64,000 nt of DNA from an uncultured Candidatus Saccharibacteria bacterium (GTDB taxonomy: Bacteria; Patescibacteriota; Saccharimonadia; UBA4664; CAYXHD01). The notes beneath the pieces are model-generated. The model had not been told where the DNA came from and ran no database searches. It was given only the letters and a program-made list of their open reading frames with translations. Position numbers and translations under genes: made by a program. The stretch spans positions 4,804 to 68,803 of the forward strand of contig CAZPDI010000001.1 of NCBI GenBank assembly GCA_964585425.1, read 5' to 3'. This document shows positions 10,319-60,321 of this stretch, piece by piece. The first letter of the stretch is position 1, and each line of letters starts with the position of its first letter.

Positions 10319-10335
10319 ACCCCCTTATAAAATAG

Positions 10336-10364: not shown

Positions 10365-10403
10365 TATTGTCATGCTTGCATACGAAGTATGCGCGCACCT
10401 TAC

Positions 10404-11207
10404 GACAAAGCCAACAACTACACCGAAAGGGGTCCCGATGGGATCTTCTGGAATTCTGGGGTTTCCCAAGGCTGCACACCGCGCCCCCACCATCAGCGAG
10501 GGGTACCAGGAGTACGTCGAGGAGATGACCGGCCTGGCCGTGTGCATGATCTGCGATAGCGGAACATGCCCCGGCGCCAGTGGACGCGCTTGCCCCTATG
10601 AACTCGACGTCTGCACCGTCTGCTGGCAGCTCGACTGCATTAGCGTCTTCGGTCACGACTGCCCTTCGGAGGAACGCTGCAACAACTGCGGTCACCTCCG
10701 GAACGAATTCGGCCATTACAGCAACTGCTCAATGCCCACAATGAAGCTGTGCGACGAGTGCGGGAGCGCAACCTGTCGCGTCAACCCGCCAAAGGAAATG
10801 CGAGAGGAGTACCCGTCGGACTACAATCCGTACTGGGATGACCACCACAGCATCTTCGATACGCTGGGCTGCCTCTTGGGTAGCCCGATCAGCGAGGAAG
10901 AACGGATCGCGGAAGAGATCGCATCGTGTTGGGCTCCGCGCACCGACCAGATGTCCCGAGATCGAGTACGGCAACAGATGCTGAGAACATGGATTGATCG
11001 TGATCTGGACAAAGCAGCTGAGGAAGCTCAGCAGCGCGCCGACCAGATGTCCCAGTCCATGCATCAGCTCACCGAGCTTGCGGACGACTACGACGACGGA
11101 CTGATCTCCGAGAACGTGGTTCTGATGCTCCTCCGGGCTGATCATCGCGGTGTACGGCTCTCCGGGTGACCTTTGAGGGTCGGTGAGCGTCAAGGCTTGG
11201 CTTTGTC
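10404..11207 (+). repeat. Second copy of the same 11-bp inverted repeat pair, bracketing cassette 1b
   Basis: GACAAAGCCAA at 10404-10414 and TTGGCTTTGTC at 11197-11207. The 3' copy lies in the hairpin GGTGAGCGTC(11182-11191)/GTCACTCACC(11205-11214), whose 13-nt loop aAGGCTTGGCTTT is conserved. Confidence 0.7.
10438..11169 (+). CDS. GC-rich ORFan, 243 aa, Cys-rich N-terminal half (14 Cys, four CxxC pairs) and acidic helical C-terminal half
   Basis: The start was moved to ATG 10438, behind the SD GAAAGGGG; the track start 10372 lies in the promoter. CxxC pairs are CMIC, CTVC, CNNC and CDEC. No family recognised. Confidence 0.55.
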   Translation: MGSSGILGFPKAAHRAPTISEGYQEYVEEMTGLAVCMICDSGTCPGASGRACPYELDVCTVCWQLDCISVFGHDCPSEERCNNCGHLRNEFGHYSNCSMPTMKLCDECGSATCRVNPPKEMREEYPSDYNPYWDDHHSIFDTLGCLLGSPISEEERIAEEIASCWAPRTDQMSRDRVRQQMLRTWIDRDLDKAAEEAQQRADQMSQSMHQLTELADDYDDGLISENVVLMLLRADHRGVRLSG

Positions 11208-11275
11208 ACTCACCTAAGTGTATATACACGATAAATACATTTAGGTGAGTATTATTAAGATAAACACAACTTCTA

Positions 11276-11304
11276 TTGACAAATAGGGTTTAGTTTGCTA
11301 TACT
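11276..11304 (+). promoter_or_regulatory. Candidate promoter of GC-rich cassette 1c
   Basis: TTGACA (11276-11281), a 17-nt spacer, then TATACT (11299-11304). Confidence 0.65.
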
Positions 11305-11365
11305 TATGCGCAATCTGGTGGAACACCCATCCGATAGAACACAGACCACAACCCAAGGAAAGCCC

Positions 11366-12103
11366 ATGTCTCAGCTCGTCATCGTCCAGGGCCCCAAGCC
11401 CCGCACGTCCGCGGTGTCCGACAAGGATGCCCACAACCTCCGCCTCCAGGCGGACAAGGTGCTGGCCAGGCACCGCGGTGATCTCCCCCAGGAGATCGTC
11501 ACGCAGCTGACCAGCCCGATGCCCGGCATCGTGGGCATGGGACTGCACGACGCGGCCTCCTGGATCAAGCAGCGCACCGCCAACCTCAAGCTGCAGTACG
11601 TGCAGCAGCACCCCGACTGCGAGGCGGCCATGGCCCTCAAGACCCGAGTCGACAACGTCCTCAACGGCGAGTTCGGCGACAAGGTCAAAAAGAGCCTCGA
11701 CATGCGTGGTCAGCGCATCCTCGAGCTGGACCTGTACCAGATCTTGAGCACCGACCAGCTGAAGAGCTTCGCCCACTTCGTCAAGAAGGCCGAGGCAGTC
11801 GAGGGTCGCTTGCAGACCGAGAAGGCACGCAAGGCGGTGCCGGCCCAATCGCTCCAGATGCTGTTCCCGTCCAAGGAGAAGCGCGAGCGCAAGCCGAAGA
11901 AGGTCAAGCCGGCCTACGCCGGTCTCCCCGCACCGTCCACCGGGATCGTCACCGACTGGAAGAGCGACGTCGGCAGCGTCGGTGCCCCGAACCCCCAGGG
12001 TCCGGCGCCGGCACGCGGCGTCACCCTCCGCAAGTCCGACAAGGCTCGCGCCAAGGGAGTGAAGGGTGGTGGCGTCAAGACCCGTCCGGGGCGACGCAAC
12101 TGA
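11366..12103 (+). CDS. GC-rich ORFan, 245 aa, with a Lys/Arg/Pro/Gly-rich basic C-terminal tail
   Basis: The start was moved to ATG 11366, behind the SD AAGGAAAG; the track start is 11306. The tail reads KEKRERKPKKVKP..KARAKGVKGGGVKTRPGRRN. No family recognised. Confidence 0.55.
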   Translation: MSQLVIVQGPKPRTSAVSDKDAHNLRLQADKVLARHRGDLPQEIVTQLTSPMPGIVGMGLHDAASWIKQRTANLKLQYVQQHPDCEAAMALKTRVDNVLNGEFGDKVKKSLDMRGQRILELDLYQILSTDQLKSFAHFVKKAEAVEGRLQTEKARKAVPAQSLQMLFPSKEKRERKPKKVKPAYAGLPAPSTGIVTDWKSDVGSVGAPNPQGPAPARGVTLRKSDKARAKGVKGGGVKTRPGRRN

Positions 12104-12119
12104 CCAGTTGATCTGCGTT

Positions 12120-12153
12120 CCCCGAGTCATGACATCGTCGTCATGGCTCGGGG
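12120..12153 (+). terminator. GC-rich hairpin closing cassette 1c, convergent with the uvrA 3' end
   Basis: CCCCGAGTCATGAC-atcgtc-GTCATGGCTCGGGG forms a 14-bp stem with one G-U pair. No clear U tract follows. Confidence 0.5.
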
Positions 12154-40040: not shown

Positions 40041-40415
40041 ATGAATGCACCTGCCCGTCCCATGCCCGACATCACCGATGTGGAGCTGACCAAGAAGATC
40101 ATCGATGAACGTGTGAAGCACCACAACCTGCGCCATGAAGATGGTGAAGCGATCTGGATGGTAGTCACGGCCATCGGTCATGCCATCAAGATCGGTGATC
40201 CTCAGTACAGCCCGATGATCGACCGCAACGTCACGGGGCTGCGCAACGAGGCGAGGCCAGGCGAAGTTCCGGTCATCTTGCTGTCCGACCTGAACCGCAT
40301 CTTCTGTGACGACACGTTGATACGCGAGCTGCAGCGGGTGTTCCCGAGCATCGTCAATGATGCGGCGCGCGTTGCCTGCTGGAAGTTCCGCAACTGCATG
40401 TACGGATGCGACTGA
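40041..40415 (+). CDS. GC-rich ORFan, 124 aa (variable partner of module copy 1)
   Basis: ATG follows the SD TAAGGA. GC3-rich codons. It ends in the junction GAC TGA TC ATG. Confidence 0.55.
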   Translation: MNAPARPMPDITDVELTKKIIDERVKHHNLRHEDGEAIWMVVTAIGHAIKIGDPQYSPMIDRNVTGLRNEARPGEVPVILLSDLNRIFCDDTLIRELQRVFPSIVNDAARVACWKFRNCMYGCD

Positions 40416-40417
40416 TC

Positions 40418-40627
40418 ATGCGCCTTCGGATCCCCTGGCGCAAGCAAACCGTGCCGCCGCCACCCGCGACTGTCGCGATGAAGGCTGCGCCCCTGGTGCC
40501 GCCACCTCATCGCCGGATGACGGCCGAAGAACGCGCTGCGTGCTGCCAAGATCAGAGGAAGATCAAGCTGCGTGCTGCCAAGCGTTGTCGGCGCAAGGCC
40601 CGAAAGCGCCGACTGCGCAACAAGTAA
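40418..40627 (+). CDS. Pro-rich / strongly basic mini-protein, 69 aa (conserved partner, copy 1)
   Basis: The start was set at ATG 40418, matching the paralog junction TGATCATG; the track start is 40406. It shares the core VAMKxAPLxPPPxRRMTAEERAA and a K/R tail with ORF 42234..42467. Confidence 0.55.
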   Translation: MRLRIPWRKQTVPPPPATVAMKAAPLVPPPHRRMTAEERAACCQDQRKIKLRAAKRCRRKARKRRLRNK

Positions 40628-40647
40628 CCCCCGTGAGGCGGATCGCC

Positions 40648-40680
40648 GAAAGGTCCCTCTTGCGGGGGATCTTTCGTTAT
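40648..40680 (+). terminator. Terminator hairpin, divergent copy of the conserved island-3 terminator
   Basis: GAAAGGTCCC-tcttgcg-GGGATCTTTC followed by GTTAT. Confidence 0.55.
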
Positions 40681-40687
40681 GGTGATA

Positions 40688-40716
40688 TTGATTTATACCT
40701 GTAAATGTGATTAAAT
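40688..40716 (+). promoter_or_regulatory. Candidate promoter of GC-rich unit 3b
   Basis: TTGATT (40688-40693), a 17-nt spacer, then TTAAAT (40711-40716) with upstream TG. Confidence 0.5.
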
Positions 40717-40750
40717 TTCCCTATTCCGTTTCGAGTCCAAAGGAGAGACC

Positions 40751-40984
40751 ATGACGGACGCACATGCCACGGCCGTCTCCACGGTCTATTTTTGGCTCGA
40801 GTACGAGTTGGGTATCGATAATCCTGATCACGTTGAACTGACCATGATTATCGAGAATGGCTGGCTGCGCTATCGGTGCCCGGCCCACGACATCACCCCG
40901 CTTGAAATCGCCCGCCTCGAAGCTGCCTGCCGGCACCACGCCCATTCTCTTGAAGTGCACCTGAACCTGGAGGTTCAATCATGA
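40751..40984 (+). CDS. GC-rich ORFan, 77 aa
   Basis: ATG follows the SD AAAGGAGAG. ATGA overlap at 40981-40984 couples it to the next ORF. Confidence 0.5.
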   Translation: MTDAHATAVSTVYFWLEYELGIDNPDHVELTMIIENGWLRYRCPAHDITPLEIARLEAACRHHAHSLEVHLNLEVQS

Positions 40985-41733
40985 TTGTCCACAAGCACGA
41001 CATCGATACCGCAGCTCGTCTGGCCGCCAAAGAGCGGTTCATGAACGAGTCATGGCTGGATGATCGCAAGGTGCGATCATGGTTCGCTTGGCTCGGTATC
41101 CGTCCTGACGGTCATCAAGCATTGCGCATCTTGCGCGCTGTGCATGCCACGGCTGCCACCGTGCGTGAGTACAAGATCCACCATCGCCACACGCGCTTCG
41201 GTCGAACGATGCGCCTGCAGCGCCGGCTCCCACCGTGGCCCGCCAAGTACGCGGATACCCCGGTCATCAATGCCGCGCAGATGCTGCTGGTGACTCAGCG
41301 CACGGACTACATCCACCTCACGGAGCTGACGCGACCAATTACGGGTACCAGTTATCGGCACGGCGACAATCGACGCGTCGATATGGAAACGTGCAAGATG
41401 TTCCTGGAGAACGTGCAGAGCAAGTTCATGCGCGAAGCCGTTTGGTCAGATGAGTTGGTATGTATCGAGAGCTTTGCGCGGCTCGGCCTGACGCCCGATG
41501 AGCTGCTGGTGGCCGAGATGGCTCTGATCCGTCTGATGAGTAGGTATCGGCACGAAAAGGGGCTTACCTGGTATCTGATGCCGACCTATGGCAGCCGGAG
41601 CCGCCGCTTGCACACCCTCACCATGGGTGATTTCTTGAACATCACCCGATTTCTCCAACCCAACTATGGCGACACCGACATGGAGTTTCTCATGACGCTG
41701 GCCGATCGTCTGCGTTCGCGACTTGCGACCTGA
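40981..41733 (+). CDS. GC-rich ORFan, 250 aa, Arg/His-rich
   Basis: Translationally coupled to the 77-aa ORF. No motif recognised. Confidence 0.55.
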   Translation: MIVHKHDIDTAARLAAKERFMNESWLDDRKVRSWFAWLGIRPDGHQALRILRAVHATAATVREYKIHHRHTRFGRTMRLQRRLPPWPAKYADTPVINAAQMLLVTQRTDYIHLTELTRPITGTSYRHGDNRRVDMETCKMFLENVQSKFMREAVWSDELVCIESFARLGLTPDELLVAEMALIRLMSRYRHEKGLTWYLMPTYGSRSRRLHTLTMGDFLNITRFLQPNYGDTDMEFLMTLADRLRSRLAT

Positions 41734-41753
41734 TCTCGACACATACCCTCGCG

Positions 41754-41796
41754 GGGGCTTTTCTACGGAAAGGTCCCTGCGGGGGATCTTTCGTTT
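41754..41796 (+). terminator. Conserved 43-nt terminator element, copy A
   Basis: The element reads GGGGCTTTTCTACGGAAAGGTCCCTGCGGGGGATCTTTCGTTT. It contains the mini-hairpin CTTTTC-tacg-GAAAGG plus a 10-bp stem GAAAGGTCCC/GGGATCTTTC and a T-rich tail. Confidence 0.65.
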
Positions 41797-41801
41797 ATAG
41801 C

Positions 41802-41830
41802 TTGCAATATCAATACTTTAAATGTATAAT
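41802..41830 (+). promoter_or_regulatory. Candidate promoter of GC-rich unit 3c
   Basis: TTGCAA (41802-41807), a 17-nt spacer, then TATAAT (41825-41830) preceded by TG. Confidence 0.65.
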
Positions 41831-41859
41831 TTGTAAATCCGTACGACCAAGGAGTACCC

Positions 41860-42231
41860 TTGACCGAAGCCAATACCCTACCCAAGGCCGATGCCAGCGT
41901 CAAGCTGTCCGACGACATCATCGCAAGCTGCTACGAGGGCTGCGATCCCCGTGAGTCCGATCGAGCTCGCGGCTGCATCGCCGCCCTCAAGGACCTGCTA
42001 CGGCTCGCCGAGAAGACGCCGAACGACGCGCGCTACCAGGAGATCCGGGAGTTCGACGCCGACACCCTGACCGTTGGCCAGTTCATCACCCTGATGTACC
42101 TGCCGGCGATGTCGCCGAATCAGCCCCGCCAGCTGATGCGCAACGTGCGTAGCAACTGGGGGCGACTCAACCAGCGAGTTCTCATCGAGCTGCGAGACAA
42201 GCTGGATGAGCGCTACGAGCCCCAGGACTGA
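41860..42231 (+). CDS. GC-rich ORFan, 123 aa (variable partner of module copy 2)
   Basis: TTG start 5 nt after the SD AAGGAG. It ends in the same GAC TGA TC ATG junction as 40041..40415, but the two proteins show no visible similarity. Confidence 0.5.
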   Translation: MTEANTLPKADASVKLSDDIIASCYEGCDPRESDRARGCIAALKDLLRLAEKTPNDARYQEIREFDADTLTVGQFITLMYLPAMSPNQPRQLMRNVRSNWGRLNQRVLIELRDKLDERYEPQD

Positions 42232-42233
42232 TC

Positions 42234-42467
42234 ATGGGCATCTGGAACTCTCGGCGCAAGAAGACGACACCACCGCCACCTCCTCCTGCACCTCCTCCGC
42301 CGCCCGCGGCTGTCGCGATGAAGACTGCACCACTGGCGCCGCCACCGCGTCGCCGAATGACGGCCGAAGAACGCGCCGCTCTCAAGCTGCCCAAAGTGAA
42401 GGCCCGGCAGCGCCTGGCCAAGAACCGACGCGCCAAGGTCAGGAAGCGCAAGCACAAGAAGTCCTGA
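42234..42467 (+). CDS. Pro-rich / strongly basic mini-protein, 77 aa (conserved partner, copy 2)
   Basis: Paralog of 40418..40627. It contains PPPPPPAPPPPPAAVAMKTAPLAPPPRRRMTAEERAA and the tail KARQRLAKNRRAKVRKRKHKKS. Confidence 0.6.
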   Translation: MGIWNSRRKKTTPPPPPPAPPPPPAAVAMKTAPLAPPPRRRMTAEERAALKLPKVKARQRLAKNRRAKVRKRKHKKS

Positions 42468-42479
42468 TCGCGCCCCTGT

Positions 42480-42523
42480 GGGGACTTTTCTACGGAAAGG
42501 TCCCTGCGGGGGATCTTTCGTTT
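42480..42523 (+). terminator. Conserved 44-nt terminator element, copy B
   Basis: The element reads GGGGACTTTTCTACGGAAAGGTCCCTGCGGGGGATCTTTCGTTT. It is identical to copy A except for one inserted base. Confidence 0.65.
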
Positions 42524-42534
42524 TTAAATGAGAA

Positions 42535-42558
42535 AGACCCAGGATTTCTCCTAGGTCT
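42535..42558 (-). terminator. Hairpin with GAAA tetraloop terminating the minus-strand 143-aa cassette
   Basis: On the minus strand: AGACCTAGGA-gaaa-TCCTGGGTCT, a 10-bp stem with one G-U pair, followed by TTCTCATTT. Confidence 0.55.
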
Positions 42559-42603
42559 AGGGGCCAGGGATTCGACTACCCTGCACCCCCATCCACAACC
42601 TGT

Positions 42604-43035
42604 TCACGCCTGCATATCAGGCGGCAAGGTGAAGGCGTCAGGGTACGAGATGACCAGATCATTATCGTTCAACGGATAGATCGCGCCCCAGTCCGTAAGC
42701 ACGAACCGTTCGCAGAACGTCTGATCCACAGCACGAGCATACGCTGGTATATCACGCAGATCGTCTTTCGTCAGCTCTTGCCCCCAGTAAAAGGTCCCTT
42801 TGTCATGAGAGTTGTGAGTAACGACCTTGTCATCAGGACATATGAATGTGTAGATCTCTGTGAAATCAAAGCCGATAGCCCCTTGCTGGTGCTTAACCCC
42901 GAGAGGGTCACGGCCTGCCGTGACGATGGCATCAACTCGAGACAACACGCCAGTCGGGTATATGTAGCGAGCCACCAACAACTTGGTGGCGACCACGTCG
43001 ATGTGCTTGGTCTGGCTTTCACCCTCGGTATCCAT
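42604..43035 (-). CDS. ORFan, 143 aa, intermediate GC, own promoter and terminator
   Basis: ATG follows the leader ..CCAACCAACGAAGGGG, which carries the SD. No motif recognised. Confidence 0.5.
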   Translation of the reverse strand: MDTEGESQTKHIDVVATKLLVARYIYPTGVLSRVDAIVTAGRDPLGVKHQQGAIGFDFTEIYTFICPDDKVVTHNSHDKGTFYWGQELTKDDLRDIPAYARAVDQTFCERFVLTDWGAIYPLNDNDLVISYPDAFTLPPDMQA

Positions 43036-44422: not shown

Positions 44423-44457
44423 ATACGCATCTTGGCCGTCTAGCAAAAGGAAACATC

Positions 44458-44868
44458 ATGCCAAGCGCACAGACCATCCTCCCTCTGACCGCCGAACAGG
44501 TGGCCATGCCCGTGACCGCTGCCATCCTCACCACGGAGGACATCATCGGCGACCACGGGAGGTACCCGAAGGACATCGCTCACAGCTTGTCCACCATCTG
44601 CGAGTTCCTGCAGGAGGTCAAGCGGGAGGTCAAGCAGAGTCCAAGGGCCTACCTCGGCTGGTTGGAGTTGGCGGATGAGAACGGGGTGCGCTTCAGCGAG
44701 CGCGATTACCCCAGCATCACCGCAGGGTTCCTCCTGGCCGTGATGGAATCCAGCGCCGCCTGGGGCACCGTGATGAAGCACGGTCCGGAGGACTACTGCT
44801 TCGAGCAGCTGAACATGCTGAGGACGGCGGTCTACGCCCTCCTCTTCAAGCGGTCGCTGGCTGGCTGA
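44458..44868 (+). CDS. GC-rich ORFan, 136 aa
   Basis: The start was moved to ATG 44458, behind the SD AAAAGGAAA; the track start 44413 lies in the promoter. No motif recognised. Confidence 0.55.
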   Translation: MPSAQTILPLTAEQVAMPVTAAILTTEDIIGDHGRYPKDIAHSLSTICEFLQEVKREVKQSPRAYLGWLELADENGVRFSERDYPSITAGFLLAVMESSAAWGTVMKHGPEDYCFEQLNMLRTAVYALLFKRSLAG

Positions 44869-44893
44869 GGTTCTTCCTCCGCCAGCACCACGC

Positions 44894-44940
44894 CCCACTC
44901 GGGGTCTTCTACGGAAGACTCCGAGTGGGTTTTTCGTTTA
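44894..44940 (+). terminator. Intrinsic terminator with C(UACG)G tetraloop closing cassette 4
   Basis: CCCACTCGGGGTCTTC-tacg-GAAGACTCCGAGTGGG forms a 16-bp stem with one G-U pair, followed by TTTTTCGTTTA. It is convergent with typA. Confidence 0.75.
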
Positions 44941-50709: not shown

Positions 50710-50789
50710 GTTATTAGTATAGCAGTGGGAGCACCTAGGTTAAAAACAACTTTTCTGGTTATTGCGACTAATTCGCAGTAAGTAAAAAT

Positions 50790-51470
50790 CTACTTTTTTA
50801 GAGTCCTCTGGAACAAACGATGCCAGCGCCAAAACGCACCAATACCCTTAATGGTGGTAGCCGTATGATTACCAACATTGTAGCGATGCACCTTCATGCC
50901 AGGTAAAGCCGTAATAAGTAACTCGGTATTAGTAGGCGGAATAACAGTGTCTTTTTGTGAATAGATCAGATACACCGGACGCCCATCAAGCAACCCCATA
51001 TCTTTGAGCGGTTCGACCGGACTTAGCTCTTGTGAAAGCTGCGTGAAATCATAACCATTCTTTGTATATGCTGGTTTAAAAGATTTGCCGGCCGGGCTCT
51101 TCCAGATAAATCGCGCAATTGAACCACGAGCTGTCACTAAGGCGGCGGCTCGCAATTGTGGCGTATGCTTGAGCGCGTACAGTGCACTCTCGGAGCCTAA
51201 CGAGTTCCCCATCGTGTAGGACGGAATATCTTTTGGCAAGGTTGCAAGCGTAGCGGCGATATCGCGCTGAACAGCCTCAATCTGCCCAACGTAGGCCATA
51301 ATGTTAGAGGATACTACCGTTTGCGAATCCAGCACATAGGCATAGACTCGGTAGCCGAGCAGTCGCATCATCCAGTAGGCTGGCAGATAGGTGCCAATCC
51401 TCGTACGGTAGCCACCGATAAAAAAGATGACGCGACGCCTGGACAAACCAAACTGGCGCCGCTCAAACAT
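50790..51470 (-). CDS. Alpha/beta hydrolase fold protein
   Basis: 226 aa with the nucleophile elbow GNSLGS and a length and pattern consistent with a small alpha/beta hydrolase. Confidence 0.5.
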   Translation of the reverse strand: MFERRQFGLSRRRVIFFIGGYRTRIGTYLPAYWMMRLLGYRVYAYVLDSQTVVSSNIMAYVGQIEAVQRDIAATLATLPKDIPSYTMGNSLGSESALYALKHTPQLRAAALVTARGSIARFIWKSPAGKSFKPAYTKNGYDFTQLSQELSPVEPLKDMGLLDGRPVYLIYSQKDTVIPPTNTELLITALPGMKVHRYNVGNHTATTIKGIGAFWRWHRLFQRTLKK

Positions 51471-53136: not shown

Positions 53137-53586
53137 TTATTTACAGTCTTTGTCGGCGCCACAACTGTGAGCCAACTTTTTGAGCAGCACCAAGAGCTCG
53201 GTAATGTCTTGGTCACTTAAACCGGCCAGTAACTCTACAATGTGACCGTGTGCAGCCAATCGCAAACCCTCGACCTTCTTTTTACCGGCTACCGTTAAAC
53301 GCACATCGACGACTCGACGGTCCTCGGTTGAAGCCTCACGACTCACAAGCTCCATTTGTACCAAACCTTCGGTTAGCTGGGTAGCGGCACTGCTGCTAAT
53401 ACCCAACAGCTCGGCCATCAGCTTAATGGTAGCTGACTCGCGGCAACTCAAAAGATGCAGGGCTTCGGCTTGAGGGCGGCTCAAGCCTTGCGACGCTGCC
53501 GAGCTAGCCTTAATCGGCAGCACCTGGCGTTGCACCATGGCCATGACTTGCATGTATTCTTTTACGAGTTCTTCGCGCTTGGTCAT
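53137..53586 (-). CDS. MarR-family transcriptional regulator
   Basis: 149 aa with a winged-helix pattern (LSRPQAEALHLLS..TIKLMAELLGISSSAATQLTEGLVQMELVSR..DRRVV). It lies upstream of the MFS gene. Confidence 0.8.
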   Translation of the reverse strand: MTKREELVKEYMQVMAMVQRQVLPIKASSAASQGLSRPQAEALHLLSCRESATIKLMAELLGISSSAATQLTEGLVQMELVSREASTEDRRVVDVRLTVAGKKKVEGLRLAAHGHIVELLAGLSDQDITELLVLLKKLAHSCGADKDCK

Positions 53587-53646
53587 GTAATTATGTTAGT
53601 TTCTTAATTAATTACTGTCAAGCGCATGAGGGTGCAAAACGCCCTA

Positions 53647-54582
53647 TTATTTAGTAAAGTAGGTGGTCTTTACCAGGGTATAGACTTTTGATCCCAGCGG
53701 GATAAGCAACAATACGATGCCGAGCCCAAGCAAGTAATAGGTTTGGCTGTTAAAGGTGGCAATGAAGGCGTTGTAGACATTTTCTACGACGATACGCAAG
53801 TTCTGCTGGTTGACCTGAGCCAATACTGGCGGCTTAAACAATGGACCGACCAAGAGTGCCAGCAAGCCTGCGGTTGAGACAGCGATACCCTGCCCGACCA
53901 GTAACTTGTTAGTTGGATAGCGTTTTTTCACATGTGGCCAGACCAGCAAGAAGAGCGCCAACAGGAAGGCTAATGGTGCTACAAAGGTCAGCACTACACC
54001 AGCCTGATAGAATGATGGGATCTTATCGATATTTTTAAAGATAGTAATAGTGTCAGGTACTTGATCAACCTTAACTACCGCTTCATCCTTATTAGCCAAG
54101 GTCAGCAACTTGGTAATGGTGGTTTTGATACCGCTTAGATCATAGGTGATTGGCTCTGGTCGCTTAGAGGTAAACAAGATCTGCACTTTACCCACTACGG
54201 CATTCAGAGCATTCTGCGCTTGCTGAGTATTAAGCAATCCAGCAATAAAGTTGGTGGCTGGCTCGGCCACTACGGCACGAGCGGCTGGCTGGCTTTGCAA
54301 AGCGGTATCGACAATTTCGCCAGCTAGCGCATTACGGCTGCTTTGCGAGAGTAGTGCTTGACTGGTTACCGTAGTAAACTCCTTGGTATCAAACATCGTA
54401 CGGTTCACCCAAATAGCTGAGTTCGCCACTACTAAAAGCAGCGCAGCCAAGATGGTACTTAGAATAAAATTACGCTTCTTATGTGATTTCTTAGTTGGCG
54501 CAGCAACCGTCTGGCTGGCAACGGACTGAGTTTTTTTCTTTACAGGTGTTTTTGTTGTCTTCTTAGGTGCGGTCCTTGCCAT
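53647..54582 (-). CDS. Membrane hypothetical protein
   Basis: 311 aa with a Lys-rich N-terminus and TM helices at the N- and C-terminal parts. Confidence 0.45.
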   Translation of the reverse strand: MARTAPKKTTKTPVKKKTQSVASQTVAAPTKKSHKKRNFILSTILAALLLVVANSAIWVNRTMFDTKEFTTVTSQALLSQSSRNALAGEIVDTALQSQPAARAVVAEPATNFIAGLLNTQQAQNALNAVVGKVQILFTSKRPEPITYDLSGIKTTITKLLTLANKDEAVVKVDQVPDTITIFKNIDKIPSFYQAGVVLTFVAPLAFLLALFLLVWPHVKKRYPTNKLLVGQGIAVSTAGLLALLVGPLFKPPVLAQVNQQNLRIVVENVYNAFIATFNSQTYYLLGLGIVLLLIPLGSKVYTLVKTTYFTK

Positions 54583-54611
54583 AACAAATCCTTTTCTTGC
54601 TTTATAGCGCT

Positions 54612-54639
54612 ATTATACATCTATTTTCATAAATTGCGA
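54612..54639 (-). promoter_or_regulatory. Candidate promoter of the backbone gene 53647..54582; its sequence is repeated upstream of pyrC
   Basis: On the minus strand: TCGCAA-tttatgaaaatagatg-TATAAT, with a 16-nt spacer. Confidence 0.45.
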
Positions 54640-54642
54640 GCT

Positions 54643-54672
54643 GGCGCCGAGCGAGTCTTCCCGCCCGGCGCC
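54643..54672 (-). terminator. GC hairpin after pyrC
   Basis: GGCGCCG (54643-54649) pairs with CGGCGCC (54666-54672), a 7-bp GC stem 17 nt after the pyrC stop. No U tract. Confidence 0.45.
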
Positions 54673-54688
54673 AATCTCATGCTGCTGG

Positions 54689-55771
54689 CTACCCTGTCCA
54701 GCGCTGACGCTGCAGATCCTCTACCTGCCAACGCAACGTTTGTCCCGCCCGGAATGGCACCACCCCGCCGATCTCTTCAGGCACAGCCCAGGGGATCCTC
54801 GACAACAACACATAATTGTCGTCTTGTGGGGGCTCGACGCCGTAGAACTTGCAACCAGCAATGGAGACAAACTGCTCCAGCCTCTCCGGCCAGTCCTCCA
54901 GACCACTGTCCTCGAACAGTTCCGCCAGCACCGGCAGAGCAACTGGTCCGGAATACACGCCGTTGTTAGGCTTTGCCTTCAGCTTGTCCTCGATTCGATG
55001 AGGCGCCGAGTCGCTACCGAAGAAGATCTTGGGCGGATCACCCGGCTTGACACTGAGCATCGCAGCCAAGATGGCTTGACGATCTTCCTCGGTCTTGGCT
55101 CGCGGCAAACAGGCATGATGCGGCTGATCGATGACACCATCGTGCTCAACGTCATTAATGGTCAAGCATGGATGATGAGCCGTGATGGTGGCAGCGACGT
55201 TGGCCGGCAGCTCCATGATGAGGTTGATGGCATCGGCAGAAGAGACGTGCTCGAAGACGATTCGCAGACCCGGGAATGCCTCATGCACCTCCATGAACAG
55301 CTCGAGGAACATCTGCTCAGCATGAGCGAGATCGTCGGTTGAGACTTCGCCGTGCACGTTAAGCACGACATCAAGCTCCTGCATCACTTCAAATACTGGC
55401 CACCCGTCGTGGATATCCCGCAAACCAAAACCCGAATGAGTCGTGGTGTTGTACGGATAATACTTGACCGAACAGAATCCGTTGCGACGTTCGTACATCA
55501 GACGGATGATCGCTTCATCAGTGTCTGGCGTGAGGTACAAGGTCGGCCACAAGTTCACCATGTTCAGGCCTTTCAGCCCTGCCTGCACCTCTTGCAGATA
55601 GTGGAACGCATGCATAGCGTCACTTACTGGCACCGGGTTGAGGTTTGGCATGAGCAAGGCGTAATGGAGATGACCAATGCTGGGACGAACAACATCTTTC
55701 AGCAGACGTCCTTGACGAACATGAACGTGCCAATCGCTCGGACGACGCATCTTGAGTGCCAAGTAGGGCAT
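54689..55771 (-). CDS. pyrC: Dihydroorotase, short homodimeric (E. coli-like class II) type, GC-rich
   Basis: 360 aa. Motifs line up with E. coli PyrC as I remember it: KMRRPSDWHVHVRQG, MPNL, VKYYPYNTTT (carboxylated Lys position), HGEV, VFEHVSS, ATITAHH, FFGSDSAPH, FYG, VPFRAGQTLRW. Confidence 0.85.
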   Translation of the reverse strand: MPYLALKMRRPSDWHVHVRQGRLLKDVVRPSIGHLHYALLMPNLNPVPVSDAMHAFHYLQEVQAGLKGLNMVNLWPTLYLTPDTDEAIIRLMYERRNGFCSVKYYPYNTTTHSGFGLRDIHDGWPVFEVMQELDVVLNVHGEVSTDDLAHAEQMFLELFMEVHEAFPGLRIVFEHVSSADAINLIMELPANVAATITAHHPCLTINDVEHDGVIDQPHHACLPRAKTEEDRQAILAAMLSVKPGDPPKIFFGSDSAPHRIEDKLKAKPNNGVYSGPVALPVLAELFEDSGLEDWPERLEQFVSIAGCKFYGVEPPQDDNYVLLSRIPWAVPEEIGGVVPFRAGQTLRWQVEDLQRQRWTG

Positions 55772-55839
55772 GGTGAGTCCTTTCGGGACGTTGTGAGTGA
55801 ACGAACAAAGGTGTGCCTAAGCACACCTCCATAACCATT

Positions 55840-55867
55840 ACTATACACTATTATTCATAAATTGCGA
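55840..55867 (-). promoter_or_regulatory. Candidate pyrC promoter, near-duplicate of the 54612-54639 promoter
   Basis: On the minus strand: TCGCAA-tttatgaataatagtg-TATAGT. The shared string is GCTCGCAATTTATGAAnAATAGnTGTATA. A leader hairpin AGGTGTGC-ttag-GCACACCT follows. Confidence 0.45.
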
Positions 55868-55871
55868 GCGT

Positions 55872-55901
55872 CTGGGCCAGGGGAACTCTCCCCCGGCCCA
55901 G
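55872..55901 (-). terminator. GC hairpin after the pyrE-like gene
   Basis: CTGGGCCAGGGGA-actc-TCCCCCGGCCCAG forms a 13-bp stem with one mismatch. No U tract. Confidence 0.45.
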
Positions 55902-55923
55902 CGCGAACCGTTGAATACGGGGC

Positions 55924-56583
55924 TCAGGCTGCGAGTAACTGGACCCAGCCACCCTCGTACTGCGGGTTGACCTCATCGCGGTAGTGGGCACCGTGACCCA
56001 GCGCACCATCGACAACAATGGGCTTGCCAGCTTCACAGAGCGGACAAGCTTCGGCGTCGTAGGACGCGAAGTCCACGTGCGTCAGCTGCTCCAACCGGGG
56101 AACTCCGATGGCGTCAGCCTCCACACCGCCTCGGTTGCAGACGGCACTGATGCCGATCACCTCACCACCACAGGCTTCGATGGCCGCGCAGGTGCCCTGA
56201 ACCGAACTGCCAGTGGTCAGCAGATCCTCGATCACGAGAACGCGTTTGTTCTGCAGGTGCTGCGGGAAGCTCAGGCGATCGACCACGAAGTTGTTGCCCT
56301 CCTTGTCGGCCCACAGGCCAGGCACACGAAGACCCTTCTTGTGCAGTAGCCAGTTCGAGGCAGTGCTGGTGAGCGCCACGCCACCGGTTGCCGGTGATGC
56401 GACAACATCGAAACCGCCGTCGAATGGTCTGAGGAGATCCGAGACGATCTGGCTGAGCATCACTGGATCAGCGAAGATCGGGTCCATGCAGATGTAGCCC
56501 TCACCGTGTCCACCCTTCTTGTACACGAAGTGGTTGTCGAGAAAGACGGCTCCGACCTTCTGGAGGTACTCGAGAATGTCCAT
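55924..56583 (-). CDS. pyrE: Type I phosphoribosyltransferase, probable orotate phosphoribosyltransferase, GC-rich
   Basis: The start was moved to Met14 (56583), behind the SD AGGAA. The PRPP-binding motif is RVLVIEDLLTTGSS. The position between pyrC and pyrF supports the call. A C-terminal CPLCEAGKP motif is present. Confidence 0.6.
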   Translation of the reverse strand: MDILEYLQKVGAVFLDNHFVYKKGGHGEGYICMDPIFADPVMLSQIVSDLLRPFDGGFDVVASPATGGVALTSTASNWLLHKKGLRVPGLWADKEGNNFVVDRLSFPQHLQNKRVLVIEDLLTTGSSVQGTCAAIEACGGEVIGISAVCNRGGVEADAIGVPRLEQLTHVDFASYDAEACPLCEAGKPIVVDGALGHGAHYRDEVNPQYEGGWVQLLAA

Positions 56584-56631
56584 GTGCGTTCCTAACGTGA
56601 GACGAATGCGCCAACTGGTCACATCCGAATT

Positions 56632-56660
56632 ATTATCCTATTCATAAAAGTTATTTACAA
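56632..56660 (-). promoter_or_regulatory. Candidate promoter of the pyrE-like gene
   Basis: On the minus strand: TTGTAA-ataacttttatgaatag-GATAAT, with a 17-nt spacer. It shares TTTATGAATAG with the two promoters downstream. Confidence 0.45.
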
Positions 56661-56675
56661 GCATAAGTGTGTCGC

Positions 56676-56736
56676 CGGACGGGTGGGCAAAAAGTTTACA
56701 GTCCGAAGACCTTCTTCCTCCTCGCCCACCCGTCCG
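56676..56736 (-). terminator. Long hairpin after pyrF
   Basis: A perfect 13-bp stem joins CGGACGGGTGGGC (56676-56688) and GCCCACCCGTCCG (56724-56736), with a 35-nt loop that contains an inner mini-hairpin. Confidence 0.45.
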
Positions 56737-56742
56737 AGCATG

Positions 56743-57675
56743 TCAGGCCGCCAGGCGAACTCGCTCGATGGTCTCGTGCATGTTGGAGGCCTCAGCTTCC
56801 GACGCCTCAGCCGGAGCCAGACCCTCGTACTGCTGGTTGTCGTGAGCATGGGTGATGCCGCTCGAGGAGTTGATGGCGATGCCAGCCTGCTGGCTGTTGT
56901 GTCCGTTCTGGTAGGCGGCTGCAGCGTCACCGCCCTGCTTGTTTCCTACCCCAGGGATCAGGATCGGAACCTGCTCGCCAACACAACGACGAACGTTGGC
57001 AAGGTCGTCGATGGACTCGGGACTTGCGCCGGCCACCACACCGACGTTGCCTCGCTTGTTCCAGCCCTCCAGGCTGGCGACGTTCTGTGCGACTCGCTCG
57101 TACAGGAAGCCCTCCATAGTCACGCCCATGAGGGTTGACGAGCAGGTATCAAGCTTCTGGAACTCCTCGGCGCCAGGGTTGGATGTACGAGTCAGTACGA
57201 AGACCCCCTTGTCGCCACGGTCCAGCCACGGGGCCATGGCCTGTGCACCCATGTAGTTGTGGACGGTGACTGCATCAGCTCCGCAGACGTCGTAGGCGAA
57301 CGAGGCGTAGGTGTCATTGGTCGCTCCGATGTCGCCGGCCTTGAGGTCAAGGATCTTGACGACATCTGGCGCGTGGGTACGCATGTGCTTGAAGAGCAAC
57401 TCCAATGCCTGGATGCCTTCATGGCCATGCTTGAGGTAGAACCCCAAGTTGGGTTTCATCCAGCCGACTTTGCCGGCCAGGGCCTCGACGATCGGGAACA
57501 AGAAGGTGGTGAGCGTACCGCAGATGCTGGCCCGCTGGAAGCCCTCCGGGATGCGTGTGATCACCGGATCATCCTCGCGATAGGTGCTCTTGAGCGTTGG
57601 GTCGAGACCGGCGCAGACTGCACGGTGCTGCCCGGCGTTCAAGGCCACGAGCTCCGAAAAGCTGAGGTCGGACAT
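56743..57675 (-). CDS. pyrF: Orotidine 5'-phosphate decarboxylase, subfamily 2 (long form), GC-rich
   Basis: The start was moved to Met7 (57675), behind the SD GGAGAGGAG. Motifs are MKPNLGFY, the LDLKAGDIGATN signature (DxKxxDIxxT) and PGVGNKQGGD. Confidence 0.8.
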   Translation of the reverse strand: MSDLSFSELVALNAGQHRAVCAGLDPTLKSTYREDDPVITRIPEGFQRASICGTLTTFLFPIVEALAGKVGWMKPNLGFYLKHGHEGIQALELLFKHMRTHAPDVVKILDLKAGDIGATNDTYASFAYDVCGADAVTVHNYMGAQAMAPWLDRGDKGVFVLTRTSNPGAEEFQKLDTCSSTLMGVTMEGFLYERVAQNVASLEGWNKRGNVGVVAGASPESIDDLANVRRCVGEQVPILIPGVGNKQGGDAAAAYQNGHNSQQAGIAINSSSGITHAHDNQQYEGLAPAEASEAEASNMHETIERVRLAA

Positions 57676-57778
57676 GTCAGACTCCTCTCCCATCTGACGA
57701 TGAGATAGATTCGTGCGACCGAATTAGCCACATCCATATTAGTATGGTTTCTGGGACGCTTAAGAGCAAGCGTAAGAG

Positions 57779-58597
57779 TTATTTACTGCGCAACCGTGCG
57801 ATGACAAAGCGAGCGAGGAAGTAAATGAGGAAGCTAAGGAATGTTACAAAAACACTTGGCTTAATAGTTCCGCTGGCTAAGCTCAGGAGTACACCCCCAG
57901 CTCCGGCAACGAAGGCAAAGCCAACGGAAAGACTAGCGACCATGGCGGGTCTGGCCGATAAACGCATAGCGGCAGCGGCTGGTGTAATGGCTAAACTTAA
58001 GACGAGTAGGGTGCCGACGATTTGGGCCGCGGCAGTTACGGTCAGCGCCAAGAGGATCAAGAACGCTATACCAAGCGCACGAACTGGCACGCCACGAGCA
58101 GCGGCGACCTGCGGGTCAATCGAAGCAAACTGTAATGGTCGATACATAATAATGAGGCCCACGATGACGAGCACACAAATTCCTATTAAGAATCCGAGTT
58201 GCGTGGCACTTACGCCATATACATTACCAAAGAGGATGTTGGTCGCCGCGGTGGCGAAGCCACGATAATAACTCAGGAACAACACGCCAAGCCCAAGCCC
58301 AAAGGCCAAGATGACGCCAATGGATGAATCACGTTCTTTTTCACGCACGCCAAGTAAACCGATTGATACGGCGACGATAAGTGCGCCAATAATTGAGCCA
58401 AGCGGCGCATTATTGAGGAACAATAGTCCGGCGGCCGCACCAGTAAAGGCCAGTTCGCTAATGCCATGCACCGCAAACGCCATGCTGCGACGAATCACAA
58501 AAGGGCCCACCAGACCACAAATCATGGCAATGATGGTTGCCGCCAATAAAGCGTGTTGCGCAAAGGGCTGACCTAAATAGAATAGGAAGTTATTCAT
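57779..58597 (-). CDS. znuB: Metal (Zn/Mn) ABC transporter permease, ABC-3 family
   Basis: The start was moved to Met32 (58597), which overlaps the znuC stop. The protein has about eight TM segments in ZnuB/TroD-like context. Confidence 0.8.
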   Translation of the reverse strand: MNNFLFYLGQPFAQHALLAATIIAMICGLVGPFVIRRSMAFAVHGISELAFTGAAAGLLFLNNAPLGSIIGALIVAVSIGLLGVREKERDSSIGVILAFGLGLGVLFLSYYRGFATAATNILFGNVYGVSATQLGFLIGICVLVIVGLIIMYRPLQFASIDPQVAAARGVPVRALGIAFLILLALTVTAAAQIVGTLLVLSLAITPAAAAMRLSARPAMVASLSVGFAFVAGAGGVLLSLASGTIKPSVFVTFLSFLIYFLARFVIARLRSK

Positions 58598-60226: not shown

Positions 60227-60240
60227 GTCTTTAAAATAAA

Positions 60241-60304
60241 ACACCTTTTTGCTTATTGCAAATTTGTCGCATTAGTGATATCTTATTGCAACAAAGTCGC
60301 ATTA
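60241..60304. promoter_or_regulatory. Dual-box operator-like module in the divergent znuA / zur promoter region (candidate Zur boxes)
   Basis: Box 1 is TTATTGCAAatTTGTCGCATTA (60253-60274) and box 2 is TTATTGCAAcaAAGTCGCATTA (60283-60304). Each is an imperfect palindrome, TATTGCAA..TCGCATTA. The boxes overlap TTGCAA -35-like hexamers on both strands. Confidence 0.55.
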
Positions 60305-60321
60305 ACGAAAGATTAATAAAA

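What the first reader, a model, noticed from the sequence alone, without database searches (positions are those of the whole stretch)
54612..56660. The promoter of a backbone gene is reiterated in front of the inserted pyr genes
On the minus strand, GCTCGCAATTTATGAAAATAGATGTATAAT precedes the backbone membrane-protein gene, at 54612-54643. GCTCGCAATTTATGAATAATAGTGTATAGT precedes pyrC, at 55840-55870. That is about 27 of 30 positions identical. A third, looser version, CTTGTAAATAACTTTTATGAATAGGATAAT, precedes the pyrE-like gene.

So the AT-rich promoter segments in this island are copies of a local sequence rather than imports. This fits insertion of promoterless GC-rich genes just downstream of a resident promoter with duplication of that promoter. 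It also fits promoter copying by recombination. That offers a concrete clue to how all the cassettes in the window became promoter-equipped.
Basis: seen in the sequence. Interest (0 to 1): 0.7.

Follow-up and report, generated by a model that had tools for sequence, protein, structure and literature searches.

The report
Duplicated promoter module bracketing pyrC
Two adjacent genes in a Saccharibacteria genome, pyrC and a membrane-protein gene, carry old copies of the same unusual promoter; it belongs to a conserved set of promoters and hairpins between which related genomes hold different GC-rich pyrimidine genes.

Summary
The two-copy repeat is real. On the minus strand, 54641..54612 (before the membrane gene) and 55869..55840 (before pyrC) match at 24/30 positions ungapped and 27/31 gapped. 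They share the exact 15-mer GCTCGCAATTTATGA and a TATAAT/TATAGT box 9 nt downstream. It belongs to a second promoter family (P_I) shared by pyrE and pyrF.

The window is from Candidatus Saccharibacteria. In 631 kb of related DNA the 15-mer occurs only before pyrC or the membrane gene, so it is not a generic consensus. Every locus with pyrC has two copies and every locus without it has one. Copies group by position rather than by genome. The duplication is therefore old, and the near-identity reflects selection on a -36..-22 box plus the -10.

Each pyr gene looks like its own unit: AT-rich promoter, 5' stem-loop, gene, very stable 3' hairpin. Across relatives these non-coding modules are 74-100% identical, while the genes between them are reassorted (pyrF 33-41% identity between types, unrelated OPRTase-like proteins).

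Three of its points are not: that the event is recent, that the template is a "backbone" promoter, and that it explains all cassettes. Whether pyrC was gained or lost is unresolved.

The parts
57738..57776 (-). P_I-F: promoter-like segment before pyrF, directly after the znuB stop. Sequence CTTACGCTTGC..N..CATACTAAT.
   Evidence: It belongs to the same family as the pyrE promoter (CTTAyGCTTGC, then about 17 nt, then a GATAAT-type -10).
57713..57731 (-). 5' stem-loop of the pyrF leader (GTGGCTAATTCGGTCGCAC).
   Evidence: Folded. In the 17-sequence alignment, 3 of 6 pairs show compensatory changes.
56743..57675 (-). pyrF, type-2 orotidine-5'-phosphate decarboxylase, GC3 0.78. The likely start is the second ATG at 57675, preceded by GGAGAGGAG.
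   Evidence: Pfam OMPdecase. NCBIfam pyrF_sub2 scores 153 bits against a cut-off of 110.6. The database protein P0205 is 310 aa. GC3.
56676..56736 (-). H_F: long GC-rich hairpin after pyrF.
   Evidence: -43.6 kcal/mol, z -6.6. Related hairpins follow pyrF in all relatives.
56632..56667 (-). P_I-E: promoter before pyrE (CTTATGCTTGTAA-17-GATAAT).
   Evidence: Called by the sigma-70 scan as TTGTAA-17-GATAAT. Score 20 against the pyrC promoter, which is background.
56603..56627 (-). 5' stem-loop of the pyrE leader.
   Evidence: covarying helix that starts about 8 nt after the -10.
55924..56583 (-). pyrE-like phosphoribosyltransferase (219 aa from the ATG at 56583), GC3 0.73.
   Evidence: Pfam Pribosyltran. 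NCBIfam pyrE_Therm scores 89.5 bits, below the 150 cut-off.
55872..55901 (-). H1: 13-bp GC-rich hairpin after pyrE, directly upstream of the pyrC promoter.
   Evidence: -35 kcal/mol, z -5.05. One pair is GC in 5 sequences, CG in 5 and UA in 1, out of 12.
55840..55869 (-). P_II-C: pyrC copy of the duplicated promoter. Box GCTCGCAATTTATGA, 9-nt spacer, TATAGT.
55800..55832 (-). pyrC leader. An ATG lies exactly 7 nt after the -10. It is followed by a 12-bp hairpin (ATGGAGGTGTGC-TTAG-GCACACCTTTGT) and a T-rich tract.
   Evidence: Fold of the 64-nt leader including this hairpin: -21 kcal/mol, z -2.4. All cells are paired in 5 lineages and the only changes are wobble changes.
54689..55771 (-). pyrC-like dihydroorotase (360 aa), GC3 0.66.
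   Evidence: Pfam Amidohydro_2. NCBIfam pyrC_dimer scores 274 bits, just below the 293 cut-off.
54642..54674 (-). H2: GC-rich hairpin after pyrC, directly upstream of the second promoter copy.
   Evidence: -34.3 kcal/mol, z -6.2. Two pairs show compensatory changes in 4 lineages.
54612..54641 (-). P_II-M: membrane-gene copy of the duplicated promoter. Box GCTCGCAATTTATGA, 9-nt spacer ending in TG, TATAAT.
54583..54611 (-). Conserved 5' UTR of the membrane-protein gene (..CTATAAAGCAAGAAAAGG..).
   Evidence: Alignment A2.
53647..54582 (-). Membrane-protein gene (311 aa), with no Pfam or NCBIfam family. Specific to Saccharibacteria.

Best explanation
The two strings are paralogous copies of one promoter module, which I call P_II. 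It has three parts: an invariant box GCTCGCAATTTATGA at about -36 to -22, a free 9-nt spacer, and a TATAAT-type -10. The copies bracket the pyrC transcription unit.

The setting is a small, old and variable pyrimidine island between znuB and a membrane-protein gene in one clade of Candidatus Saccharibacteria. The island encodes OMP decarboxylase and an OPRTase-like enzyme, with or without dihydroorotase. Each GC-rich gene looks like a self-contained unit: an AT-rich promoter, a stem-loop at or near the 5' end of the transcript, the gene, and a very stable GC-rich 3' hairpin.

Two promoter families are each used twice. P_I (CTTAyGCTTGC..GATAAT plus a 5' hairpin) precedes pyrF and pyrE. P_II precedes pyrC and the membrane gene.

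Shown: the duplication is tied one-to-one to the presence of pyrC, and it predates the split of at least four lineages. The copies are kept alike by purifying selection, not by recency or gene conversion.

Inferred: one copy starts the pyrC transcript, H2 ends it, and the second copy restarts transcription for the membrane gene. The 15-nt box is a protein contact site overlapping a poor -35, which would put both genes under the same control.

Inferred origin: the pyrC unit (leader, gene, hairpin) joined the island just downstream of a pre-existing hairpin-plus-promoter, which was duplicated. Recombination between the two copies can remove pyrC again. That would explain its patchy distribution.
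For: Repeat and significance.

Lineage: the record titles read Candidatus Saccharibacteria.

Specificity: the 15-mer has 14 exact hits in 631 kb, all before pyrC or the membrane gene. The 28 hits in IMG/VR are all in unrelated contexts.

Copy number tracks pyrC in 11 independent loci. In genomes without pyrC, the hairpin before the single copy is H1. In genomes with pyrC, H1 is the hairpin that precedes the pyrC copy (alignment A2).

Copies group by position. Spacer matches are 6-7 of 9 between some orthologous copies, against 3-6 of 9 within a genome, which is no better than between genomes.

Constraint: H1 plus P_II is 74-98% identical, while backbone coding DNA is 64-83%.

Hairpins are very stable (z -5 to -6.6) and keep their pairs through compensatory changes.

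In all five pyrC lineages the pyrC leader starts exactly 7 nt after the -10.

The same junctions appear in assemblies from NCBI, JGI, ENA and Logan, so this is not a chimeric assembly.
Against: There is no transcript data, so the promoter, transcription start and terminator roles are inferred from sequence alone. The -35 region is poor and the consensus scan does not call P_II. The 3' hairpins lack a T-run and are not called as intrinsic terminators.

Loci with pyrC are scattered on the membrane-protein tree. The pyrC proteins are only 43-60% identical, while the neighbouring membrane protein reaches 88%. The history therefore includes transfer or replacement, and whether pyrC was inserted or lost is not settled.

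No protein that binds the box is known. The similarity between H1 and H2 is weak in the window lineage; only L005 has two near-identical hairpins around pyrC.
Confidence: 0.6

Rival explanations
1. The promoter came with the cassette. On this view the pyrC unit arrived already carrying hairpin H2 and a P_II promoter at its 3' end, or P_II at its 5' end. It would have come from a pool of Saccharibacteria cassettes that all use these modules. The membrane gene's promoter would then be an import that displaced the resident one, not the template.
For: The P_II box is never found before the membrane-gene ortholog in about 35 relatives that lack the island. Several of those carry the P_I-type CTTATGCTTGC there instead. 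Genes move between lineages independently of the backbone. Another GC-rich cassette, between the membrane gene and marR in L012, L057, L060, L064 and L067, brings its own AT-rich promoter.
Against: Genomes without pyrC, including the most basal ones (L066, L037), already have P_II before the membrane gene, preceded by H1. P_II at the membrane gene therefore does not depend on pyrC. In the L012/L060 comparison the modules follow the backbone, not the genes.
Confidence: 0.22
2. One reading: a recent local event in this genome. A promoterless GC-rich gene was inserted behind the resident promoter of a backbone gene, and the promoter was duplicated in the process.
For: The structure fits: hairpin and promoter, then leader and pyrC, then hairpin and promoter again, as direct repeats around the insert. 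Laboratory work shows promoter capture by duplication or deletion after gene transfer (PMC6614815).
Against: The same two-copy arrangement, with orthologous flanks, is present in L003, L057 and L067. Their backbone DNA is only 64-78% identical to the window's. The copies do not group by genome. The spacer between the box and the -10 has diverged freely while the box has not.
Confidence: 0.08
3. Convergence: both strings are independent approximations to a common strong-promoter consensus of this organism.
For: Both have a near-perfect -10, and the window copies have an extended TG. The other family (P_I) does contain a motif that recurs before other genes in the phylum.
Against: The 15-mer is found nowhere else in 631 kb, nor elsewhere in the window. 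Its -35 departs from the TTGACA/TTGTAA-type -35 boxes of backbone promoters in the window. Fifteen invariant bases are more than a -35 hexamer needs.
Confidence: 0.03
4. Artefact: GC-rich contigs from another organism were mis-joined into a Saccharibacteria bin, and the repeat is an assembly join.
For: There are sharp GC steps at the gene boundaries.
Against: The same junctions recur in at least 12 independent assemblies made by four pipelines and from different samples.
Confidence: 0.01

Closest known systems
Putative mobile promoters / promoter propagation (Matus-Garcia, Nijveen, van Passel 2012, PMC3488235)
   Same: A promoter-bearing upstream segment is found again, within one genome, in front of a non-homologous gene. 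That paper presents this as a route to rewiring the transcription of silent or new genes.
   Different: Those families were defined as upstream segments of 50-100 nt with at least 80% identity. Here the clearly alike part is 30 nt. The copies are adjacent and bracket one gene, they are ancient, and they are conserved across deeply diverged lineages.
Promoter capture after horizontal transfer by deletion or amplification (Li and Bock 2019, PMC6614815; follow-up PMC11111574)
   Same: A duplication can place a copy of a resident promoter in front of a newly arrived gene. Microhomology is involved. Here, the L058 deletion junction (CTGGCC) and the in-frame pyrE deletion in L003 (between HG.GY motifs) show events of that kind at this locus.
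   Different: Those are fresh laboratory events in E. coli. Here the outcome is fixed and old, and I cannot recover the junction microhomology of the original event.
Integron gene cassettes (established knowledge, recalled, not from a paper read here)
   Same: Variable genes sit one after another, each followed by an imperfect inverted repeat. Cassette content differs between close relatives.
   Different: I found no integrase gene at the locus or in the relatives' flanks. The hairpins are about 30 nt with no R/L boxes or GTTRRRY core. They are conserved by position rather than forming one repeat family. Each gene has its own promoter.
Variable loci exchanged between conserved flanks by homologous recombination, such as capsule or O-antigen loci (established knowledge, recalled)
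   Same: Functionally equivalent but deeply divergent genes occupy the same slot in related genomes, and their similarity does not follow the backbone tree.
   Different: The conserved flanks here are non-coding modules of 70-120 nt inside the locus, not flanking genes. The swapped genes have a much higher GC3 than the genome.
Enterobacterial pyrC and pyrBI leader control (established knowledge, recalled)
   Same: A pyrimidine gene has a hairpin at the very 5' end of its transcript. Here it is followed by a T-rich tract, and an ATG sits at the predicted +1.
   Different: There is no sequence similarity and no Rfam match. The hairpin does not cover the pyrC ribosome-binding site, which lies about 45 nt downstream. 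No regulation has been tested.

Membership tests
Sigma-70-type promoter | -10 hexamer close to TATAAT | tested here: met
   TATAAT (54612-54617) and TATAGT (55840-55845). In relatives the hexamer is TATAAT in all but one copy, which has TACAAT.
Sigma-70-type promoter | -35 hexamer close to TTGACA, 16-18 nt upstream of the -10 | tested here: not met
   CTCGCA or TCGCAA matches 3 of 6 positions (my count). The consensus scan does not call P_II, but it does call the pyrE promoter (TTGTAA-17-GATAAT).
Sigma-70-type promoter | Transcription starts a few bases downstream of the -10 | not testable with these tools
   No transcript data. Indirect support: the conserved pyrC leader hairpin begins exactly 7 nt after the -10 in five lineages.
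Putative mobile promoter family (PMC3488235) | Upstream segments of 50-100 nt with at least 80% identity before non-homologous genes in one genome | tested here: not met
   The genes are non-homologous and identity is 80-87%, but only over 30-31 nt. The adjoining hairpins H1 and H2 are only loosely alike.
Integron cassette array | attC site (R''-L''..L'-R' with a GTTRRRY core, 57-141 nt) after each gene | tested here: not met
   The hairpins are 30-61 nt perfect or near-perfect palindromes with no such core.
Integron cassette array | An integrase and a common promoter at one end, with cassettes mostly lacking promoters | tested here: not met
   The flanking genes are zur, znuABC, marR and an MFS transporter. 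The precomputed Pfam labels for the relatives' flanks list no recombinase. Each gene has its own promoter-like segment.
Dispersed palindromic repeats (REP/MITE) | Many similar copies scattered over the genome | tested here: not met
   No further copies of H1, H2 or H_F in the window. They are conserved by position across genomes.
Canonical intrinsic terminator | GC-rich stem-loop immediately followed by a T-run | tested here: inconclusive
   The stems are very stable, but no T-run follows within 0-2 nt, so the scan does not list them. Tail-less terminators are known in other phyla (recalled).
Known pyrimidine leader RNAs (for example the PyrR-binding site) or any Rfam family | Match to the covariance model | tested here: not met
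   The best Rfam matches in 54400-57900 have E-values of 0.7-6 to unrelated families, all far below their gathering scores.
De novo pyrimidine genes pyrC, pyrE, pyrF | Score above the curated NCBIfam cut-off | tested here: inconclusive
   pyrF_sub2 is met (153 against 110.6). pyrC_dimer is just below (274 against 293). pyrE_Therm is below (89.5 against 150).

The most novel reading that the evidence does not exclude
The locus may be a fixed 'expression rack'. The promoter-leader and hairpin modules would belong to the recipient chromosome and be inherited with it. Functionally equivalent genes of foreign composition (GC3 up to 0.94) would be swapped in and out of the slots between modules, using modules only 70-120 nt long as recombination anchors. 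That would be a slot-wise gene replacement system in an ultra-small, probably naturally competent epibiont. The duplicated P_II would be the trace of a third slot being added.
Probability: 0.3. Interest if true: 0.75.

Novelty: new variant of a known kind. Interest (0 to 1): 0.45.

Why it matters
The finding gives a concrete natural example of a promoter copy that stays attached to an added gene for a very long time. It also shows that the near-identity of such copies can be due to selection rather than recency.

It defines candidate native expression parts for Saccharibacteria: two promoter types, 5' stem-loops and strong 3' hairpins. I found no published description of the promoters or of this locus in the library searches.

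It points to a 15-nt cis element that may co-regulate pyrimidine salvage and an unknown membrane protein.

The wider pattern, conserved non-coding modules with reassorted GC-rich genes between them, bears on how reduced epibiotic genomes take up and express foreign genes.

Tried and rejected
- Generic consensus: rejected. The 15-mer is unique to this locus.
- Third copy as a true copy: rejected on score. I reassigned it to family P_I.
- Concerted evolution of the two copies: no signal.
- Pre-insertion site: the only 'empty' relative (L058/L059) keeps a P_I promoter, a leader and the first 16 or so codons of a PRT gene, fused to the right arm of H1. It is therefore a deletion product. More distant relatives lack the znuB synteny.
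- Donor of the GC-rich genes: the best hits outside the locus for pyrC and pyrF are other Patescibacteria at 44% identity or less. A GC-rich organism with a pyrD-pyrE-pyrC..pyrF cluster (L006-L009) has none of the modules.
- Rfam: no family matched.
- Viral contigs: only chance hits to the box, and none to the pyrC leader.
- Mobile-element genes at the locus: none seen. A 415-aa reverse ORF that replaces pyrF in L065 has no Pfam, NCBIfam or PHROG match, and neither do the other GC-rich cassettes.
- Leader peptide in the pyrC leader: rejected. The frame and the stop differ among lineages, and a 2-nt loop insertion in L067 changes the peptide but not the hairpin.
- Literature: no paper found on this locus or on Saccharibacteria promoters.
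- The source genome could not be named; the cluster look-up returned no accession.
Full report
OBSERVATION

On the minus strand, GCTCGCAATTTATGAAAATAGATGTATAAT lies at 54641..54612, 29 nt before the ATG of a 311-aa membrane-protein gene (54582..53647). GCTCGCAATTTATGAATAATAGTGTATAGT lies at 55869..55840, 68 nt before the ATG of a pyrC-like gene (55771..54689). By my own count the two match at 24/30 positions without gaps and 27/31 with two one-base indels. The repeat finder lists the pair as D18. CGCAATTTATGAA occurs exactly twice in the window.

I ran a local-alignment scan of the whole window with the pyrC copy. The second copy scored 46, and the best unrelated tiles scored 25 (6394 tiles, mean 11, sd 2.6). 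So the two-copy repeat is real and the 'third copy' is not a copy of the same string.

CONTEXT

The genes are zur (+), then on the minus strand znuA, znuC, znuB, pyrF (type 2), a pyrE-like phosphoribosyltransferase, a pyrC-like dihydroorotase, the membrane protein, marR and an MFS transporter. The three pyr genes have 56-62% GC, against about 47% for their neighbours. Their GC3 is 0.66-0.78 against 0.52-0.58.

Each pyr gene is followed by a very stable GC-rich hairpin:
- H_F, 56736..56676, -43.6 kcal/mol
- H1, 55901..55872, -35 kcal/mol
- H2, 54674..54642, -34.3 kcal/mol

Their z-scores are -5 to -6.6. Directly after each hairpin comes an AT-rich promoter-like segment. The homologs of the membrane protein, and the record titles of the loci fetched with them, place the window in Candidatus Saccharibacteria.

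RELATIVES

I fetched the same locus from independent assemblies. Their membrane proteins are 59-88% identical to the window's and ZnuB is 81-90% identical to it (identities). The segment between znuB and the membrane gene varies:
- window and L067: pyrF-pyrE-pyrC
- L003: pyrF, a 49-aa in-frame remnant of pyrE, pyrC
- L057: an unknown 180-aa gene, then pyrC
- L060, L064, L037: pyrF-pyrE
- L012 and L066: an unknown gene, then pyrF-pyrE
- L062: a PRT gene only
- L065: like L066, but pyrF is replaced by a reverse 415-aa ORF
- L058/L059: no gene

L058/L059 still hold a P_I promoter, its leader and about 16 codons of a PRT gene, joined to the right arm of H1 through the microhomology CTGGCC. They are therefore deletion products, not virgin sites.

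IS THE SHARED STRING A GENERIC CONSENSUS?

No. Across 631 kb (the window plus 61 loci) the 15-mer GCTCGCAATTTATGA has 14 exact hits. Every hit is directly before pyrC or the membrane gene. One further hit with a single mismatch (L037) is also before the membrane gene. Backbone promoters in the window look like ordinary TTGACA/TTGTAA..TATAAT promoters. The box matches the -35 consensus at only 3 of 6 positions (my count) and the consensus scan does not call it. The 28 exact hits in IMG/VR are in unrelated, mostly coding contexts.

DUPLICATION TIED TO pyrC

Every locus with pyrC has two copies (window, L003, L057, L067). Every locus without pyrC has one (L012, L060, L062, L064, L065/66, L037, L058).

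In the loci without pyrC, the hairpin in front of the single copy is H1. In pyrC-bearing loci, H1 is the hairpin in front of the pyrC copy, and a different hairpin (H2) precedes the membrane-gene copy (alignment A2). In L005, a more distant locus with pyrC, the two hairpins around pyrC are nearly identical while the promoters have diverged. The repeated unit is therefore hairpin plus promoter, and it brackets leader plus pyrC.

This structure is what insertion just downstream of a promoter, with duplication of that promoter, would leave. It is equally what recombination between the copies would resolve by deleting pyrC.

AGE AND CONSTRAINT

The 9-nt spacer between the box and the -10 varies freely and groups by position. 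The pyrC copies of the window and L067 match at 7/9. The membrane-gene copies of the window and L057 match at 7/9. Within-genome comparisons give 3-6/9, no better than between genomes.

The flanks (H1 against H2, pyrC leader against membrane-gene UTR) also group by position. The duplication therefore predates the split of lineages whose backbone coding DNA is only 64-83% identical, whereas H1 plus P_II is 74-98% identical.

The box is identical in 13 of 15 copies. One exception is L037, with one change. The other is L058, which has lost all its pyr genes and has three changes. Fifteen invariant bases spanning -36 to -22 are more than a -35 hexamer needs. I infer a protein contact site overlapping the -35; this is not tested.

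A SECOND DUPLICATED FAMILY

The segments before pyrF (57776..57738) and pyrE (56667..56632) share CTTAyGCTTGC, a spacer of about 17 nt and a GATAAT-type -10. A stem-loop begins about 8 nt after the -10. In 17 leaders from 10 loci, 3 of its 6 pairs change on both sides while staying paired.

The -35 part, TATGCTTGC, lies 43-56 nt before the membrane-gene ortholog in three distant lineages without the island (L019, L021/25/43, L035). It also occurs before other genes (L028, L030). P_I is therefore the phylum-typical type and possibly the original promoter of the membrane gene. P_II is private to this locus. This weakens the label 'backbone promoter' for P_II.

THE pyrC LEADER

In five lineages an ATG lies exactly 7 nt after the -10. 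It opens a 12-bp hairpin followed by TTTGTTCGTT. All cells are paired. The only changes are U-A to U-G and G-C to G-U, and the loop varies. The reading frame from that ATG is not conserved, so the constraint is on the structure rather than on a peptide. No Rfam family matches it. A role in mRNA stability or attenuation is speculation on my part.

GENES ARE REASSORTED BETWEEN CONSERVED MODULES

- pyrF falls into three types: A (window, L064, L067), B (L003, L060) and C (L012, L066). Identity within a type is 63-87%. B and C are about 50% identical, and A is 33-41% identical to either.
- Slot E holds OPRTase-like proteins of different subfamilies that are 12-36% identical between types.
- pyrC proteins are 43-60% identical.

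Gene type does not follow the backbone. L012 and L060 have ZnuB 96% and MarR 99% identical, yet pyrF is 50% and slot E 25% identical. Their identity profile is 83-100% across the three non-coding module stretches (most 30-nt windows 90-100%), about 65% in pyrF, and 40-45% in slot E, which is the unrelated level.

The nearest homologs outside the locus are other Patescibacteria at 44% or less, so no donor is identified. GC3 reaches 0.94 in some variants. This pattern is the most unusual thing at the locus. I have not explained it. It is compatible with slot-wise replacement by recombination in the modules.

GAIN OR LOSS OF pyrC

On a neighbour-joining tree of the membrane protein, the loci with pyrC (window plus L057; L003; L067) are scattered. 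The backbone genes themselves give conflicting groupings. Several losses or transfers are needed either way, so the direction is unresolved.

OTHER CASSETTES

The P_II string occurs nowhere else in the window. Other GC-rich islands repeat their own flank modules: D3 at 10288 and 11177, and D5/D11 at 40661, 41778 and 42505. Repetition of flank modules within an island is thus common here, but this particular promoter does not explain the other cassettes.

COMPARISON WITH KNOWN THINGS

Reuse of promoters before non-homologous genes has been catalogued (PMC3488235). Promoter capture by duplication or deletion after gene transfer has been shown experimentally (PMC6614815). The present case is the same kind of outcome. 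It differs in that the copies are short, adjacent, ancient and under strong constraint, and they sit in a conserved scaffold of modules.

It is not an integron: there is no attC core, no integrase, and each gene has its own promoter. It is not a REP or MITE family: the hairpins are conserved by position and not dispersed.

VERDICT

I rate it a new variant of a known kind, of moderate interest. The reassortment of genes between conserved modules is the part most worth following up.

Noticed in passing
L012:3900-5950 compared with L060:5990-8010; also the window's 54600-57780 compared with all related loci: The non-coding promoter/leader and hairpin modules are 83-100% identical between two genomes with near-identical backbones (most 30-nt windows 90-100%). 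The genes between them are of different types (pyrF 50% aa identity, slot-E proteins 25%). Gene type does not follow backbone relatedness. GC3 of these genes is 0.66-0.94, against about 0.5 in the backbone.
   Followed up: partly
window 55800-55832 (-); L003:9939-9970; L057:6769-6800; L067:3727-3760; L005:704-735: The pyrC leader is conserved. An ATG sits exactly 7 nt after the -10 and opens a 12-bp hairpin followed by a T-rich tract. Pairing is kept in five lineages, while the reading frame from that ATG is not. It could be a 5' stabiliser or an attenuator. It has no Rfam match.
   Followed up: partly
window 60235-60310, 3120-3211, 50759-50802: Repeated near-palindromic boxes (TTATTGCAA-N5/6-TCGCATTAA type) occur twice in the divergent zur/znuA region. 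They occur again before the 543-aa gene at 3034 and the DUF2779 gene at 50709. They are candidate Zur operators (repeat families D2 and D9).
   Followed up: no
L003:9699-9848: The pyrE slot is reduced to a 49-aa in-frame ORF that keeps the N- and C-termini of the window-type protein. The deletion lies between two HG.GY motifs.
   Followed up: partly
L058:4379-4570 and L059:3253-3444: This apparently empty site keeps a P_I promoter, a leader and about 16 codons of a PRT gene, fused to the right arm of hairpin H1 through the microhomology CTGGCC. It is the only locus where the 15-nt box carries three substitutions, and it is also the only one that has lost all its pyr genes.
   Followed up: partly
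L065:5955-7202 compared with L066:3786-5106: These two contigs encode the identical membrane protein. In L065, pyrF, its hairpin and the pyrE promoter are replaced by a reverse-oriented 415-aa ORF with no Pfam, NCBIfam or PHROG match. This leaves pyrE without its promoter.
   Followed up: partly
L012:6936-7523, L057:8963-9499, L060:9014-9532, L064:8991-9488, L067:5932-6462: A reverse-oriented GC-rich orphan gene (165-195 aa), with its own AT-rich promoter and a downstream hairpin, is inserted between the membrane gene and marR in five relatives. It is absent from the window.
   Followed up: no
window 53584-53622 (-): The marR promoter (CTTGACA-17-TAACAT) is followed by the ATG after only 6 nt, which suggests a leaderless mRNA. 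It is nearly identical in five relatives (L012, L057, L060, L064, L067).
   Followed up: no
window 57673-57693 (-): The longest pyrF ORF starts at 57693. The second ATG at 57675 is preceded by GGAGAGGAG and agrees with the 310-aa database protein, so it is the likelier start.
   Followed up: yes
window 9964-12130, 40041-42679, 44440-44898: Other GC-rich islands in the window encode proteins with no Pfam, NCBIfam or PHROG match. They carry their own repeated flank modules: hairpins at 10288 and 11177, and terminator-like repeats at 40661, 41778 and 42505, each followed by an AT-rich promoter-like segment.
   Followed up: partly
L019:5919, L021:5936, L025:1649, L035:4457, L043:5921, L028:8494, L030:8453: The motif (C)TTATGCTTGCA recurs in promoter position before the membrane-gene ortholog and before other genes in distant Saccharibacteria. 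It may be a phylum-typical extended -35 region.
   Followed up: partly
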